DNA from: Patescibacteria group bacterium
Lineage (GTDB): Bacteria > Patescibacteriota > Patescibacteriia > UBA2591 > UBA6264
DNA: 64,000 nucleotides
Direction of reading: 5' to 3'
Assembly: GCA_016784145.1 (NCBI GenBank)
Contig: JADHVF010000003.1
Coordinates: 22,048 to 86,047, forward strand
Below the pieces are notes generated by a model that was not told the DNA's origin, searched no databases, and saw only the letters and a list, made by a program, of their open reading frames with translations. This document shows positions 3,775-61,063 of this stretch, piece after piece. The translations under genes were made by a program, and so were the position numbers. How positions within the stretch are numbered: position 1 is the first letter of the stretch; every line of letters starts with the position of its first letter.

Positions 3775-3958
3775 CCTACTTAGGATTGCTTGGGATTTGG
3801 GCTCCAAGTATTAATAACTGATGTTTGTATGACCTCTGCTTTTTTAGAAAAGAAGAGGATTTGTATTTAGAAGACCATTGGGAAACCAGGGAAAATATTT
3901 AATAATTAAAATACTTATTTTTTGCCGAACAAGAAGCAAGGCCTCTTGATGTCAAGTA

Positions 3959-3987
3959 TTGACAAAAACAAAAAAATTTGCTACCAT
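3959..3987 (+). promoter_or_regulatory. sigma70-like promoter (TTGACA-17-TACCAT) for small membrane protein gene
   Basis: Exact TTGACA at 3959-3964, 17-nt spacer, weak -10 TACCAT. AAGGAGG SD at 4004-4010. Confidence 0.35.
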
Positions 3988-4016
3988 ATATATACAATCT
4001 AAAAAAGGAGGATACT

Positions 4017-4244
4017 TTGAAAAAATATACTGCAAGAAGAAAAATGATTCACAGAATCATATCCGGGCCATTATTTATGGCTATTGGGACATATCTCGTG
4101 TTTCAAACAAGCGGGGCTGGTTCAACTCCCGGAGAAATAGTTGTCTCCACGATATTATTCCCTGTCTGGTTATTTGGAATAGCAATGACAACATTCGGCA
4201 TTTATGTCCTTTTTCTTCCATTAATCAGGAAATACGATTTATAA
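4017..4244 (+). CDS. small two-helix membrane protein (hypothetical)
   Basis: ORF track starts at TTG 3978. AAGGAGG at 4004-4010 favours TTG 4017 or ATG 4044 as the real start. Two hydrophobic helices. Confidence 0.4.
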   Translation: MKKYTARRKMIHRIISGPLFMAIGTYLVFQTSGAGSTPGEIVVSTILFPVWLFGIAMTTFGIYVLFLPLIRKYDL

Positions 4245-4256
4245 AACAAAGTAAAC

Positions 4257-4285
4257 AAAAGCCGGCTAATTAAAGCCGGCTTTTC
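4257..4285 (+). terminator. rho-independent terminator
   Basis: AAAGCCGGCT-aatta-AAGCCGGCTTTT hairpin with T-run. Confidence 0.55.
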
Positions 4286-4334
4286 CCTTGTTTAAAATAA
4301 TAAGACACAAAACAACCTTTAATTAAACTTGCCA

Positions 4335-4523
4335 CCAAGTAGGCCCTACTTAGAGGCCTTTACCTCACTTAGAGGCCTTGCCCCTAAGTAGATATTGAGC
4401 ACGAATCTTACTGAGGGTTTTACTTAGAGGCCTTGCCCCTAAGTAGGGTAGAAATCAATAATCAGTAATCAATAATCAACAACCTCGCTGAGGGTTTTAC
4501 TTAGAGGCCTTGCCCCTAAGTAG
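4335..4523. repeat. cluster A of GC-rich palindromic repeat (core ACTTAGAGGCCTTGCCCCTAAGTAG) with degenerate copies and an ATCAATA heptad tract
   Basis: Exact cores at 4368-4391, 4422-4446 and 4499-4523. Partial copies at 4335-4359 and 4411-4420. Heptads at 4449-4481. Confidence 0.8.
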
Positions 4524-4546
4524 ATATTGAGCACAAATATCATGTA

Positions 4547-4575
4547 TTGACAACCGAAGAAGAATTTGTTATTAT
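4547..4575 (+). promoter_or_regulatory. sigma70-like promoter TTGACA-17-TATTAT
   Basis: TTGACA 4547-4552, 17-nt spacer, TATTAT 4570-4575. AAGGAGGA SD about 9 nt upstream of ATG 4620. Confidence 0.45.
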
Positions 4576-4619
4576 ATTATACACTAAATTATTTAACATA
4601 AAAAAGGAGGATAGAATAA

Positions 4620-4880
4620 ATGGATTCAATTAGCTTTATTGAAAACGGATTAAAAATAGAATTCTCAATCGAAAAATTGCCAACCATTAATCACAAGATT
4701 AATGAAAAAATTAGTAAGACAATTTTAGAAAAAATGGGAAAAGCAATTGAAAAAAACGCTTCCATAGGAATAATAGAAGAATATACCAAAATCATTAAGG
4801 AAAAATTTCCTAACAAAATAAATGATTTTGATAAAATATTACACTATTCCATGGATAATCTAAAAAAAAGCCAACTTTAA
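4620..4880 (+). CDS. hypothetical small protein (86 aa)
   Basis: ORF with strong SD. Hairpin overlapping stop codon (AAGCCAACT/AGTTGGCTT 4868-4891). Confidence 0.4.
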   Translation: MDSISFIENGLKIEFSIEKLPTINHKINEKISKTILEKMGKAIEKNASIGIIEEYTKIIKEKFPNKINDFDKILHYSMDNLKKSQL

Positions 4881-4988
4881 TTAGTTGGCTTTATCCTTGC
4901 TTTTTTAAAAAAAAACTTTATAATATTATTATAACTAACCCATTATAAATAGGTTAGTTATTTGCTAAATTATTAATCTTAAAAAAAA

Positions 4989-9678: not shown

Positions 9679-9750
9679 GCGGGCGTCGTATAGTGGCTAT
9701 TATACGTCCTTGCCAAGGATGAGACGGCGGTTCAATTCCGCTCGCCCGCT
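9679..9750 (+). tRNA. tRNA-Gly (GCC)
   Basis: Cloverleaf with acceptor GCGGGCG/CGCCCGC, anticodon loop TTGCCAA, T-loop TTCAATT. Confidence 0.8.
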
Positions 9751-9810: not shown

Positions 9811-10067
9811 TTACCTCACTTAGAGGCCTTGCCCCTAAGTAGGGTACAAATCAATAATCAGTAATCAATAATCAACAACCTCACTGAGGGTTCTACTTAG
9901 AGTTTACTTAGAGGCCTTGCCCCTAAGTAGAGTATAAATCAATAATCAGTAATCAATAATCAACAACCTCACTTAGAGGCCTTGCCCCTAAGTAGAATAA
10001 TCAACAATCTCCCTTAGAGTTTTACTTAGAGGCCTTGCCCCTAAGTAGACTCACTTAGAGGCCTTGA
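9811..10067. repeat. cluster B of the GC-rich palindromic repeat
   Basis: Cores at 9818-9842, 9906-9930, 9971-9995, 10024-10048, truncated copy 10051-10067. Spacings 88/65/53. ATCAATA heptads interleaved. Confidence 0.8.
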
Positions 10068-10126: not shown

Positions 10127-10209
10127 TGGGTGGGGCAGGATTCGAACCTACGAAGGTAATCACCGTCAGATTTACAGTCTGATGCATTTGGCCGCTTTGC
10201 TACCCACCC
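10127..10209 (-). tRNA. tRNA-Tyr (GTA), long variable arm
   Basis: Reverse complement folds with acceptor GGGTGGG, anticodon loop CTGTAAA, T-arm GTAGG-TTCGAAT-CCTGC. Confidence 0.8.
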
Positions 10210-14849: not shown

Positions 14850-14862
14850 GTTTAGAAATGAC

Positions 14863-14984
14863 TATTGATTAGTGATTATTGATTATTGATTATTGATTAT
14901 TAATTATTGATTAGTGATTATTGATTAGTGATTATTGATTATTGATTAGTGATTATTAATTAGTGATTATTGATTATTATTCTG
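14863..14984. repeat. TGATTAn heptad microsatellite (about 17 units)
   Basis: ttgattagtgattattgattattgatta... period 7, between mscS stop (14977) and terminator. Confidence 0.85.
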
Positions 14985-29287: not shown

Positions 29288-29854
29288 ATGATATATGCTA
29301 TTTTTGGAAAAATTTTAGCCAAGCAAACCAAGACAATAATACTTGAAGTAAATAATTTATTTTTTGAAATTTTTGTTACAAATTCTTTTATAAACAAAAC
29401 AAAAATAGACCAAGATATTAAATTGTTTACTTATTTAGCCGTAAAAGAAGAAGCATTTCAATTATATGGATTTGAAAGCGAAGAAGAGTTGAATTATTTT
29501 AAATTATTAAAAAAAATCTCTGGCATCGGACCCAAGTCAGCCATAAATATTTTATCTTTAGTTGGTATAAATAATTTGGAAAAAGCAATTTTAGAAAAAG
29601 ATTCTAACGTACTAACAAAAGTATCTGGAATTGGATCTAAAATTGCTGAAAAAATTATTTTAGAACTAAAAGGAAAAATCAAAGCAACAATTAAAACTTA
29701 TACATCTATTGATGATGAAACAACAATCGATGCACTAACAAGTCTAGGATATTCCATGCAAGAATCTAGGCAAGTAATAAAAAAAATTCCAGATAATATG
29801 ATAAATGCTGAAGATAGAGTTAAACAAGCATTAAAAATTTTATCTGGAAAATAA
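29288..29854 (+). CDS. ruvA: Holliday junction branch-migration protein RuvA
   Basis: OB N-domain, HhH motifs ISGIGPKSAINILS and VSGIGSKIAEKII. Confidence 0.8.
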   Translation: MIYAIFGKILAKQTKTIILEVNNLFFEIFVTNSFINKTKIDQDIKLFTYLAVKEEAFQLYGFESEEELNYFKLLKKISGIGPKSAINILSLVGINNLEKAILEKDSNVLTKVSGIGSKIAEKIILELKGKIKATIKTYTSIDDETTIDALTSLGYSMQESRQVIKKIPDNMINAEDRVKQALKILSGK

Positions 29855-29935
29855 ATAATTAATGATTAATGATTAGTGATTAGTGATTAGTGATTAATGA
29901 TTAATGATTAATAATTAATGATTAGTGATTAATGA
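29855..29935. repeat. TGATTAn heptad microsatellite filling the whole ruvA/rplU convergent spacer
   Basis: attaatgattaatgattagtgattagtgatta..., 11 to 12 units. Confidence 0.85.
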
Positions 29936-30325
29936 TTATTTCGTTTTCTTAACCGTGCTTTTAGCCGGTTTTTTCTTAACCGTGCTTTTAGCCGGTTTTT
30001 TTACTTGGGCAGAAGTAAATGACAAAATCTTGATTTTTGTCTGTAATTGTCTATGCCCTTGTTTTCTTTTATAACGATTTTTACTTTTGTATTTAATGAC
30101 AACAATCTTTGGAGCTTTTTGTTGCTCTAAAATTTCAGCCTTAACAACCATTTTAAGTAATGGTTTGCCTATTTCAATTTTTTTAGACAAATCAAAAAAC
30201 AACAAAACATTATCTAGCATTATTTTGTCACCTGGTTGGCCATCAATTTTCTCTATATTTAATAAATCTCCCTTTTTTACAAGATATTGTTTTCCTCCTG
30301 TTTTTAATACTACAAATTTTTCCAT
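29936..30325 (-). CDS. rplU: 50S ribosomal protein L21 with lysine-rich C-terminal extension
   Basis: MEKFVVLKTGGKQYLVKKGD matches the L21 start. C-terminal KKPAKSTVKK duplicated (27-bp DNA tandem duplication 29947-30000). Confidence 0.8.
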   Translation of the reverse strand: MEKFVVLKTGGKQYLVKKGDLLNIEKIDGQPGDKIMLDNVLLFFDLSKKIEIGKPLLKMVVKAEILEQQKAPKIVVIKYKSKNRYKRKQGHRQLQTKIKILSFTSAQVKKPAKSTVKKKPAKSTVKKTK

Positions 30326-39518: not shown

Positions 39519-39900
39519 TTAATTTTCTACTTAGGTCTACTTAGGGGCAAGGCCTCTAAGTAAAACTCTCAGTGAGGTAGTTGATTATTGATTATTGATT
39601 ACTAATTACTGATTATTGATTACTGATTATTGATTTCTATTCTACTTAGGGGCAAGGCCTCTAAGTAAAGACATAAGTCAAGAAAAGCAAGTATTAACAC
39701 CAAAACCTCATCCTGTTCCTCGACCAAAACCTGACTTAGGGGCAAGGCCTCTAAGTGAGGTAGTTGATTATTGATTATTGATTATTGATTTGTACTCTAC
39801 TTAGGGGCAAGACCTCTAAGTGAGGTAGTTGATTATTGATTACTGATTATTGATTACTACTCTACTTAGGGGCAAGACCTCTAAGTGAGAGTAAGTGAGG
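39519..39900. repeat. cluster C of the GC-rich palindromic repeat (opposite orientation: CTACTTAGGGGCAAGGCCTCTAAGT) with TGATTAn heptads
   Basis: Cores at 39537-39561, 39642-39666, 39735-39758, 39797-39821, 39862-39886. Confidence 0.8.
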
Positions 39901-47442: not shown

Positions 47443-47498
47443 AAATAATTAATAAATGATTATTAATTATTGATTAGTGATTAGCAATTATTGATTAA
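47443..47498. repeat. TGATTAn heptad tract between trxB stop and its terminator
   Basis: aataattaataaatgattattaattattgattagtgattagcaattattgatta. Confidence 0.7.
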
Positions 47499-60634: not shown

Positions 60635-60751
60635 TTTTTTTGTTCTCCTTTGATTATTAATGTACTTAACTACATTATGTATGCAGCCATTGTATTATTA
60701 ACCAATATAGCATATTTTAAGGTTTTGTCAATCGCAAACTGCCTAAATAAA

Positions 60752-61063
60752 AAATGTGCAATATCAAAGATCGCACACTCACAAGTAGTTACTTAGAGGC
60801 CTTGCCCCTAAGTAGATACACTTAGAGATATTACTTAGAGGCCTTGCCCCTAAGTAGATATTGAGCACGAATCAATAATCAATAATCAGTAATCATTCAC
60901 TTAGAGATATTACTTAGAGGCCTTGCCCCTAAGTAGAGTCACTTAGAGATATTACTTAGAGGCCTTGCCCCTAAGTAGAGTCACTTAGAGATATTACTTA
61001 GAGGCCTTGCCCCTAAGTAGATATTGAGCACAAAAAAGTGTGCAATATCAAAGGTTGCACACT
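60752..61063. repeat. cluster D: five palindromic-repeat cores in a 42-bp tandem unit, bounded by two copies of a second hairpin element (AGTGTGCAA-n9-TTGCACACT)
   Basis: Cores 60791-60815, 60833-60857, 60922-60946, 60954-60978, 60996-61020. Bounding hairpins 60752-60778 and 61037-61063. Confidence 0.8.

What the first reader, a model, noticed from the sequence alone, without database searches (positions are those of the whole stretch)
4335..4523. Family of GC-rich 27-nt hairpin repeats (CTACTTAGAGGCCTTGCCCCTAAGTAG) at four loci in the window
The same 25-27-nt GC-rich unit recurs at least 18 times in four clusters (4335-4523, 9811-10067, 39519-39900, 60752-61063) in a genome of about 30% GC. 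The outer arms CTACTTAG and CTAAGTAG are exact inverted repeats. The unit can form a 10-bp stem with one A·C mismatch and a CCTTG loop. Spacings are irregular (32-89 bp). Intervening DNA consists of degenerate copies (CTCACTGAGGGTT), a recurrent ATATTGAGCAC tag and ATCAATA heptads. This fits neither CRISPR, rRNA/tRNA nor a coding region. It resembles REP/BIME-type or MITE-like extragenic palindromes, which to my knowledge are not catalogued for this kind of organism. Three of four clusters abut tRNA genes.
Basis: seen in the sequence. Interest (0 to 1): 0.7.

Follow-up and report, generated by a model that had tools for sequence, protein, structure and literature searches.

The report
REP-type hairpin repeat arrays, Patescibacteria
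The GC-rich 27-base hairpins are a real family of non-coding palindromic repeats, and the same hairpin flanks and sits inside a RAYT-like transposase gene in related ultra-small bacteria, so this is an ordinary kind of selfish repeat seen in an unusual host group.

Summary
There are 17 full and 2 truncated copies of (T/C)(T/C)ACTTAGAGG(C/T)CTTGCCCCTAAGTAG, in four intergenic head-to-tail arrays; 0 are expected by chance. Independent assemblies give identical arrays. The host is an uncultured Patescibacteria (CPR) bacterium whose nearest NusA relative is only 64% identical.

The unit matches no Rfam family. It has stops in all six frames, and its irregular spacing and recurring spacers rule out CRISPR.

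The same stem and apex (ACTTAGAGGC-CTT-GCCTCTAAGT) flanks a ~220-aa HUH/Y1 transposase gene common in Patescibacteria, and also lies in frame inside it. That protein hits Pfam Y1_Tnp, and its best structural match is the E. coli RAYT-REP complex 4ER8. Hairpin and gene co-vary from locus to locus through compensatory changes.

I therefore read the window repeats as a REP-type family cognate to a CPR RAYT-like transposase. They look locally amplified together with a small set of spacer modules: half-sites, an ATATTGAGCAC tag and AATCAAT heptads.

Three caveats remain:
- No RAYT gene was found in the ~81 kb of this organism I could reach.
- All copies are tandem, not inverted as in BIMEs or REPINs.
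- The GTAG lies 3' of the hairpin and is base-paired.

Verdict: a new member of a known kind, of moderate interest.

The parts
4333..4534 (+). Array c1. Left end is CACCAAGTAG, followed by a truncated copy at 4346-4364. Full hairpins lie at 4365-4391, 4420-4446 and 4497-4523. ATATTGAGCAC tags lie at 4392-4402 and 4524-4534, and a heptad spacer at 4453-4479. The array sits between a terminator (4257-4284) and a strong promoter (4547-4575).
9811..10067 (+). Array c2. Hairpins lie at 9816-9842, 9904-9930, 9969-9995 and 10022-10048, with a truncated copy at 10051-10067. Heptad spacers and CACTGAGGG/CTTAGAG half-sites are present. It lies between the convergent tRNA-Gly (9679-9750) and tRNA-Tyr (10127-10209) genes, beyond their terminator-like hairpins.
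39519..39900 (-). Array c3. Hairpins lie at 39537-39563, 39642-39668, 39732-39758, 39797-39823 and 39862-39888. The last two carry the GAGGTC variant. The 65-nt unit (hairpin plus heptad spacer) is repeated 2.4 times at 95% identity. One unique 62-nt spacer is present. The array lies between the Wzy-like gene and tRNA-Ser.
60780..61031 (+). Array c4. Left end is CACAAGTAG. Hairpins lie at 60789-60815, 60831-60857, 60910-60936, 60952-60978 and 60994-61020, in 42-nt units that include a CACTTAGAGATA half-site. ATATTGAGCAC tags lie at 60858-60868 and 61021-61031. Its orientation is opposite to both flanking genes.
60749..60779 (.). Left copy of a 31-nt direct repeat that brackets array c4. On the - strand it is a terminator-like hairpin followed by a T run.
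   Evidence: 28 of 31 bases identical to 61032-61063
61032..61063 (.). Right copy of the same 31-nt direct repeat. On the - strand it is the terminator-like hairpin of tRNA-Val.
14859..14978 (-). Heptad-only array (AATCAAT/AATCACT, 17 copies). It is the same module as the spacers inside c1-c4 but has no hairpin. Whether it belongs to the element is uncertain.
29854..29938 (+). Heptad-only array (AATGATT, 12 copies) that fills the convergent ruvA/rplU spacer. Whether it belongs to the element is uncertain.

Best explanation
The 27-nt units are a lineage-specific family of REP-type (repetitive extragenic palindrome) hairpins. They carry the same stem and apex (ACTTAGAGGC-CTT-GCCTCTAAGT) that marks a Patescibacteria-wide clade of RAYT-like HUH/Y1 single-strand DNA transposases. 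The window copies differ by one T-to-C change, which creates an A.C mismatch in the stem.

Shown:
- The units are non-coding, intergenic and hairpin-forming.
- They occur only as head-to-tail arrays at four loci.
- The cognate hairpin flanks, and is embedded in frame in, RAYT-like genes of other CPR bacteria, and co-varies with those genes.

Inferred:
- A RAYT of this type seeded copies into permissive spacers, by binding the folded single-stranded hairpin and cutting and rejoining at its foot. Such a gene may be present elsewhere in this genome, or may have been lost.
- The permissive spacers lie downstream of terminators and next to tRNA genes.
- The arrays then grew by tandem duplication (slipped-strand or unequal recombination between copies). 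That growth dragged along a small set of spacer modules and, at c4, 31 nt of flanking terminator.
- The elements are most likely selfish or neutral passengers. Any effect on mRNA ends or DNA topology would be secondary.
For: Reality and non-coding nature of the repeats:
- Copy numbers far exceed chance.
- All four arrays lie in the 11% of the window that is intergenic. Together they make up 15% of all intergenic DNA.
- The unit has TAG or TAA stops in all six frames (read directly from the sequence).
- There are no Rfam matches at gathering score, and only noise at E<=10.
- The arrays are identical across independent assemblies.

Link to RAYT:
- A degenerate scan of JGI metagenomes hit L049, a 1.2-kb contig of 34% GC. 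It has 3 copies of CTTAGAGGCCTTGCCTCTAAGT in and around an ORF that passes Pfam Y1_Tnp (28.4 bits against a cutoff of 23).
- It also hit L031, where the hairpin lies just upstream and a compensated variant just downstream of a homologue.
- Homologues fetched by protein similarity show the same layout of upstream, in-gene and downstream hairpins: L064, L067, L068 and L070.
- The stem differs between loci by compensatory changes, yet is the same within a locus. Examples are ATTTGGAAGC..GCTTCCAAAT in L068 and ATTGATAGGC..GCCTATCAAT in L070, whose protein is 85% identical to that of L049.
- On 14 DNA hairpins, 6 of 11 pairs show changes on both sides, and 0 of 500 shuffles reach the observed covariation.
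- In 105 homologous proteins, the heptapeptide at site 2 (L-G/R-G/S-x-A/T-S-K) is compatible with a perfect 9-bp hairpin in 88 cases. The codon 3-5 pair is compatible in 89 cases, against a mean of 65 and a maximum of 74 in shuffles.
- The AlphaFold2 model of P0132 (pLDDT 80) best matches 4ER8, E. coli RAYT bound to REP (E 2e-4, probability 1.00), followed by the IS608 and ISDra2 TnpA structures.
- JGI names some members 'REP element-mobilizing transposase RayT'.

Local amplification:
- c4 contains identical 42-nt units and c3 contains 65-nt units at 95% identity.
- A 31-nt flank duplication brackets c4.
- L070 shows tandem half-sites next to a full hairpin, the same architecture as the window arrays.

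Lineage specificity:
- The motif is absent from GTDB representatives, JGI metagenomes and IMG/VR.
- Syntenic loci of the nearest relatives have no such repeats, and their methyltransferase-to-nusA spacer is 90-160 nt against 1215 nt here.
Against: - No Y1/RAYT gene was found in the window or in the ~17 kb of flanking sequence I could fetch (tblastn; Pfam).
- In the 7-20 kb seen around RAYT genes of other CPR bacteria, the hairpins occur only at the gene, so proliferation into arrays has not been shown to be typical.
- All copies are head-to-tail. In classical REP families, inverted (HH/TT) pairs dominate and HT dimers are rare (PMC3733652).
- The GTAG is on the 3' side and is mostly base-paired, unlike the unpaired 5' GT[AG]G guide of canonical REPs (PMC6006769).
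- The CPR protein scores only 17-22 bits on NCBIfam REP_Tyr_transpos, whose cutoff is 80.
- No mobility, excision or copy-number polymorphism was observed. All available assemblies are the same clone.
Confidence: 0.7

Rival explanations
1. The arrays are recombination-driven minisatellites with no transposase involved now. The hairpin originally came from a RAYT locus, or was shared with one, but every copy here arose by tandem duplication and occasional ectopic recombination. The elements are orphan relics.
For: No RAYT gene was found in ~81 kb. Every copy lies in a tandem array and none is solitary. Perfectly repeated 42-nt and 65-nt units are present. A flank duplication brackets c4.
Against: Four separate loci share the same unit and the same end modules: c1 and c4 both start CAC(C)AAGTAG and both end ATATTGAGCAC. 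Tandem duplication alone cannot move the unit between loci. The cognate hairpin-RAYT pairing is strong in relatives.
Confidence: 0.17
2. The hairpins are domesticated cis-acting RNA or DNA elements. They might protect 3' ends, insulate transcription or direct processing around tRNA genes and operon boundaries, or they might bind a nucleoid or partition-type protein through the heptad spacers.
For: The arrays sit at gene and operon boundaries. Three of four lie next to tRNA genes. c1 lies between a terminator and a promoter. The reverse strand folds as RNA into a perfect 11-bp stem using a G.U pair (-15.3 kcal/mol). AATCAAT/AATCACT heptad arrays also occur alone in other spacers.
Against: Orientation relative to flanking transcription is inconsistent: two arrays are co-directional, one is opposite and one lies between convergent genes. 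No T-tract follows the hairpins. c1 and c2 lie beyond terminators, so they are probably little transcribed. The repeats are absent from the nearest relatives at syntenic sites. The tRNA association is not significant once spacer length is considered.
Confidence: 0.1
3. The arrays are degenerate or orphan CRISPR arrays.
For: The repeat is 27 nt long and partly palindromic, and it occurs in same-orientation arrays.
Against: Spacing is irregular at 42-105 nt. The 'spacers' are themselves repeated within and between arrays: heptads, half-sites and the ATATTGAGCAC tag. No cas genes occur among the annotated ORFs. The same hairpin lies inside Y1 transposase ORFs elsewhere.
Confidence: 0.01

Closest known systems
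REP sequences with their RAYT / TnpA(REP) transposase (REPtrons) of Escherichia, Pseudomonas and Stenotrophomonas (PMC3479197, PMC3116915, PMC3733652)
   Same: Both are short imperfect palindromes, extragenic and species-specific, and often clustered and reiterated in tandem together with flanking DNA. In both, the same hairpin flanks a single HUH/Y1 transposase gene. The best structural match of the CPR protein is the E. coli RAYT-REP complex 4ER8.
   Different: The host is Patescibacteria, which is absent from the published phylum lists. All copies are head-to-tail, with no inverted doublets. The GTAG is 3' of the hairpin and base-paired, rather than an unpaired 5' guide. The protein is about 220 aa and falls far below the NCBIfam RAYT cutoff. 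A cognate gene has not been found in this genome.
TnpA(Y1) subclass 2.4, with in-frame REP insertions and 'double-foot' REPs (Quentin et al. 2018, PMC6006769)
   Same: REP hairpins lie inside the transposase ORF without breaking the reading frame. The hairpins carry a GTAG/CTAC-type foot on both sides.
   Different: In the CPR family the in-gene hairpins occupy two fixed positions (about residues 60 and 155) that bracket the HUH and Tyr motifs, not between them. They are conserved across more than 100 proteins with codon-level covariation. The order of the feet is CTAC...GTAG rather than GTAG...CTAC.
BIMEs of E. coli (bacterial interspersed mosaic elements)
   Same: Both are mosaics of a palindromic unit plus a small repertoire of recurring inter-unit motifs, and both are intergenic.
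   Different: BIMEs alternate REP orientation, whereas every unit here points the same way within an array. The motifs are unrelated.
STAR elements of Staphylococcus aureus, Neisseria NIME/dRS3 arrays and pneumococcal BOX elements (recalled from memory, not tested)
   Same: All are GC-rich or palindromic short units, reiterated in intergenic arrays with semi-conserved spacers in a low-GC or small genome, and built from modules.
   Different: There is no sequence relationship. Those families have no demonstrated Y1 transposase partner.
IS200/IS605 insertion sequences (IS608, ISDra2)
   Same: The transposase has the same fold and recognises subterminal hairpins on single-stranded DNA. Hairpins lie upstream and downstream of the gene.
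   Different: The window arrays carry no transposase ORF. The CPR genes appear to be present in low copy number, with hairpins also inside the ORF.

Membership tests
REP (repetitive extragenic palindrome) family | A short (20-40 nt) imperfect palindrome that folds into a stem-loop | tested here: met
   The unit is 27 nt with 10 of 11 stem positions paired. RNA energy is -11.4 or -15.3 kcal/mol by strand, and DNA energy -5.7 or -7.3 kcal/mol; 0 of 200 shuffles fold as well. Covariation across loci supports the stem.
REP (repetitive extragenic palindrome) family | Extragenic and present in many copies at dispersed loci | tested here: met
   There are 17 full and 2 truncated copies at four intergenic loci in 64 kb. 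The genome-wide count could not be obtained.
REP (repetitive extragenic palindrome) family | An unpaired 5' GT[AG]G guide tetranucleotide at the foot of the hairpin (PMC6006769, PMC3733652) | tested here: inconclusive
   A GTAG is present in 16 of 17 copies, but on the 3' side, where it pairs with the 5' (T/C)(T/C)AC. A 5' GTAG directly precedes only the first unit of c1 and of c4.
REP (repetitive extragenic palindrome) family | A cognate RAYT gene flanked by the same hairpin (REPtron) in the same genome | not testable with these tools
   None was found in the window or in ~17 kb of flanks. The rest of the genome could not be fetched. The feature is met in other Patescibacteria: L049, L031, L064, L067, L068 and L070.
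BIME / REPIN | REP units in alternating or inverted orientation (HH/TT doublets that form a larger hairpin) | tested here: not met
   All units within each array share one orientation.
MITE | Terminal inverted repeats plus short, regular target-site duplications | tested here: not met
   The arrays have no terminal inverted repeats at their ends. Only c4 has a flanking direct repeat, and it is 31 nt long.
CRISPR array | Regular repeat-spacer period with unique spacers, usually with cas genes | tested here: not met
   Spacing is 42-105 nt, and the spacers recur within and between arrays. No cas domains were found.
Known structured RNA (Rfam) | A match to a curated covariance model | tested here: not met
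   Only tRNAs reach gathering score. Sub-threshold hits on c2 and c4 have E>=0.3 and score far below their cutoffs.
RAYT / Y1_Tnp (for the CPR protein linked to the hairpin) | HUH motif and catalytic Tyr in a Y1 transposase fold | tested here: met
   Pfam PF01797 scores above its cutoff and is precomputed for most homologues. NHYHF and YVNLN are invariant or nearly so. The best fold match is 4ER8, followed by the IS608 and ISDra2 TnpA structures. NCBIfam REP_Tyr_transpos scores only 17-22 bits against a cutoff of 80, so the protein is not an equivalog.

The most novel reading that the evidence does not exclude
Patescibacteria may carry a distinct REP-RAYT variant in which the transposase gene permanently hosts its own recognition hairpin in frame at two fixed sites. 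These sites bracket the HUH-Tyr catalytic core, and further copies lie in the 5' and 3' flanks. All copies evolve in concert with the genome's dispersed repeats. The in-gene hairpins would then be functional cis sites, for example for autoregulation, self-cleavage or gene conversion that keeps protein and target matched. In some lineages, such as this one, the system would have produced head-to-tail REP arrays with heptad spacers that take up about 15% of the intergenic DNA of a streamlined genome.
Probability: 0.25. Interest if true: 0.65.

Novelty: new member of a known kind. Interest (0 to 1): 0.45.

Why it matters
CPR/Patescibacteria genomes are small and streamlined, and are usually described as poor in repeats and mobile DNA. 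Here a REP-type family fills about 15% of the intergenic DNA in a 64-kb stretch. It can be tied to a RAYT-like transposase clade that is widespread in the group, with more than 2,000 database homologues.

This extends REP-RAYT biology to a major uncultured radiation. It explains why short-read contigs of this organism break at these sites. It also gives a testable protein-DNA pair: the hairpin and protein co-vary, and the hairpins sit in frame inside the gene.

The finding does not reveal a new kind of system.

Tried and rejected
- Exact 25-mer scans of the GTDB representatives, JGI metagenomes and IMG/VR found nothing.
- The NusA-based locus search in genome contigs picked low-complexity peptide patterns and returned only relatives at or below 41% identity.
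- The apparent doubling of c2 in L001/L018 contains a run of N. I discounted it as a scaffolding artefact rather than copy-number polymorphism.
- Most single hits of the degenerate metagenome scan are perfect hairpins in unrelated contexts. I judged them to be chance terminator-like hairpins or a separate family, not relatives.
- Sub-threshold Rfam hits (miRNA precursors, RAGATH-22, psm_mec) were rejected as noise.
- I could not find the organism's own RAYT. tblastn over all fetched loci was negative. Candidate homologues with the LRGKASK peptide (P0132, P0138) came from other organisms. A short-peptide homologue search aimed at the LRGKASK subtype failed, first because the query was too short and then because no candidate shared three words with it. 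That spent the last protein search.
- A profile search of the CPR family against PDB sequences gave nothing. The fold search was needed instead.
- I considered strand bias relative to replication and dropped it. Four arrays and an ambiguous GC-skew profile cannot support any inference.
- The tRNA association was examined and judged not significant.
- A literature search for the hairpin sequence, and for REP or RAYT in Patescibacteria, found nothing relevant.

Full report
**Observation**

The window is about 30% GC. A core regex finds 17 full copies, and the left arm plus GGCC occurs 19 times once two truncated copies are counted.

The copies form four arrays:
- c1, 4333-4534, + strand
- c2, 9811-10067, + strand
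- c3, 39519-39900, - strand
- c4, 60780-61031, + strand

Within each array every unit points the same way. Real copies begin TTAC or TCAC, and the idealised CTAC is seen only in a truncated copy. Start-to-start spacing is 42-105 nt.

Between hairpins there is a small repertoire of modules:
- half-sites (CACTTAGAG, CACTGAGGG)
- the tag ATATTGAGCAC, four copies, always directly 3' of a hairpin and twice at an array end
- runs of AATCAAT-type heptads

c1 and c4 share both end modules: CAC(C)AAGTAG on the left and ATATTGAGCAC on the right.

The unit folds as 7 bp, an A.C mismatch, then 3 bp. The reverse strand gives a perfect 11-bp stem through a G.U or G.T pair. No shuffle folds as well, either as RNA or as DNA. 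Independent ENA assemblies reproduce c1, c3 and c4 base for base, and short-read contigs end at the first hairpin. The repeats are therefore real and not an assembly artefact.

**Context**

The window is a housekeeping stretch of a bacterial chromosome. It encodes NusA, trigger factor, H+-PPase, DnaB, AspRS, ClpB/ClpP, RNase Y, NrdJ, transketolase, ribosomal proteins and 13 scattered tRNAs. NCBI names the exact NusA protein as 'Patescibacteria group bacterium', and the next-best NusA is only 64% identical.

Protein genes cover 89% of the window. All four arrays lie in intergenic spacers and account for 15% of intergenic DNA. c1 lies between a terminator and an 11/12-match promoter. c2 lies between convergent tRNA genes, beyond their terminator-like hairpins. 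c3 and c4 each lie between a protein gene and a tRNA gene. Orientation relative to the neighbouring genes is inconsistent.

The tRNA adjacency is real but is explained by spacer length.

**What it is not**

- Only tRNAs reach Rfam gathering scores, and permissive scans of c2 and c4 give noise.
- The unit has TAG or TAA stops in all six frames.
- The irregular spacing and the recurring 'spacers' exclude CRISPR.
- There are no terminal inverted repeats or regular target duplications, as a MITE would have.

**The link to a transposase**

The exact motif is absent from GTDB species representatives, JGI metagenomes and IMG/VR. A scan that allowed transitions found 30 JGI contigs. Most are isolated perfect hairpins in unrelated contexts.

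L049 is different. It is 1.2 kb long and 34% GC, and carries three copies of CTTAGAGGCCTTGCCTCTAAGT in and around an ORF with an HUH motif (NHYHF). That ORF passes Pfam Y1_Tnp. L031 has the hairpin just upstream of a homologous gene, and a compensated variant (CACTGAGAGG..CCTCTCAGTG) just downstream.

The ORF has more than 2,000 database homologues of about 215-225 aa. Where they are named, they come from Paceibacteria, Parcubacteria, Kaiserbacteria, Yonathbacteria, Minisyncoccia and 'Patescibacteria group'. JGI calls some of them RayT.

DNA fetched for five homologues shows the same layout each time:
- one hairpin 15-50 nt upstream of the start codon
- one or two hairpins in frame inside the gene
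- one hairpin within a few bases of the stop codon

Within a locus the copies agree. Between loci the lower stem changes by compensatory substitutions while the GGC-CTT/AAG-GCC apex is kept. Examples are ATTTGGAAGC in L068 and ATTGATAGGC in L070, although the L070 protein is 85% identical to that of L049.

On an alignment of 14 hairpins, six of eleven pairs show changes on both sides, and no shuffle reaches the observed covariation.

The in-gene hairpins translate to L-(G/R)-(G/S)-x-(A/T)-S-K at about residues 60 and 155. In 105 homologues, 88 site-2 heptapeptides are compatible with a perfect 9-bp stem encoded by reverse-complementary codons. The codon 3-5 pairing (G-A, S-A, G-T, N-V, H-M, D-V) exceeds every shuffle, at 89 against a maximum of 74.

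An AlphaFold2 model of P0132 has pLDDT 80, with the first hairpin peptide in a segment below 50. Its best match is 4ER8, E. coli RAYT bound to a REP hairpin, followed by the IS608 and ISDra2 transposases. By sequence the family is remote from canonical RAYTs: NCBIfam gives 17-22 bits against a cutoff of 80, and the PDB sequence profile search gives no hit.

**Interpretation**

The window unit differs from the L049, L064 and L031 hairpin by one T-to-C change, which produces the A.C mismatch. It also shares the flanking (T)(C/T)AC...GTA(G/A) bases. I therefore read the arrays as a REP-type family cognate to this CPR RAYT-like clade.

Growth by local tandem duplication is supported by:
- identical 42-nt units in c4 and 65-nt units at 95% identity in c3
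- a 31-nt duplicated terminator bracketing c4
- the half-site-plus-hairpin pattern also seen beside the L070 gene

Dispersal to four loci with shared end modules needs something more than slippage, and a Y1 transposase is the obvious candidate.

Published work already describes the main features of such systems:
- REPs clustered and reiterated in tandem with flanking DNA
- intragenic REPs
- in-frame REPs within tnpA(REP) of subclass 2.4
- 'double-foot' REPs

These are reported in PMC3733652 and PMC6006769, so the kind of system is known.

**Limits**

- No RAYT gene was found in the roughly 81 kb of this organism that I could reach. The rest of the genome was inaccessible with the permitted look-ups, and my last protein search failed.
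- Around RAYT genes of other CPR bacteria I saw hairpins only at the gene itself, so array proliferation may be peculiar to this lineage.
- The nearest relatives (64% NusA identity) have no such repeats at syntenic loci, and they have a 90-160-nt spacer where this genome has 1215 nt containing c1.
- The head-to-tail arrangement and the 3', base-paired GTAG depart from canonical REP, BIME and REPIN features.
- No mobility or polymorphism was observed, because all assemblies are the same clone.

**Verdict**

This is a new member of a known kind in a phylum-level group where I found no prior description. Interest is moderate.

The more novel thread concerns the CPR RAYT gene itself. It carries its own recognition hairpin in frame at two fixed sites, with concerted evolution. 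That deserves separate follow-up.

Noticed in passing
window 14859-14978, 29854-29938 and 47448-47497; also L014 near 271 and 6994, and L017 near 3940 and 4080: Heptad microsatellites (AATCAAT/AATCACT/AATGATT, up to 17 copies) occur alone in several intergenic spacers. One sits between the mscS stop codon and its terminator. Another fills the whole convergent ruvA/rplU spacer, and an ENA contig ends there. They are the same module as the spacers inside the hairpin arrays. From memory they resemble heptad iterons bound by ribbon-helix-helix proteins; I did not test this.
   Followed up: partly
window 60749-60779 and 61032-61063; L069 9880-10000 and 10691-10790: Array c4 is bracketed by a 31-nt direct repeat of the tRNA-Val terminator (28 of 31 bases identical). 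In L069 a RAYT-like gene is bracketed by a 71-nt duplication of the 3' end of the upstream prfA gene. Long flank duplications are not expected for IS200/IS605-type transposition.
   Followed up: partly
L064, L067, L068, L070, L049 and proteins P0121-P0240: The CPR RAYT-like genes carry their flanking hairpin in frame at two fixed positions (about residues 60 and 155) that bracket the HUH and Tyr motifs. The two copies within a protein resemble each other more than they resemble copies in other proteins. This points to concerted evolution of the gene-internal hairpins with the genome's repeat.
   Followed up: yes
L026, L030, L033, L034, L037-L039, L042, L043, L046, L048, L051, L053, L054 (JGI/ENA metagenome contigs, mostly 50-60% GC): A separate conserved element recurs in these contigs. 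It consists of a variable hairpin, then AAAAANNNGA, then CTTAGGGGCCTTGCCCCTAAG, then AACCCCGC. The first hairpin shows compensatory changes. No Rfam family overlaps it. It is probably an undescribed structured RNA or a mobile-element end, unrelated to the window.
   Followed up: no
window 3775-4988: The spacer between the methyltransferase gene and nusA is 1215 nt here. It holds two small ORFs with no Pfam match (3978-4244 and 4620-4880) plus array c1. In the nearest relatives the spacer is 90-160 nt. hppA is also inserted between nusA and tig.
   Followed up: partly
L040 near 160-180 and other Ga0209542 contigs (L028, L029, L055): The same 21-nt hairpin tip, CTTAGAGGCCTTGCCTCTAAG, forms the centre of a much longer perfect palindrome in 44-49% GC contigs from one metagenome. 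No Y1 homologue was detected in the fetched stretches.
   Followed up: no
L014 5181-5927 (about 5 kb to the right of the window end): A LAGLIDADG_2 homing-endonuclease ORF lies in a gene-poor stretch next to trmD.
   Followed up: no
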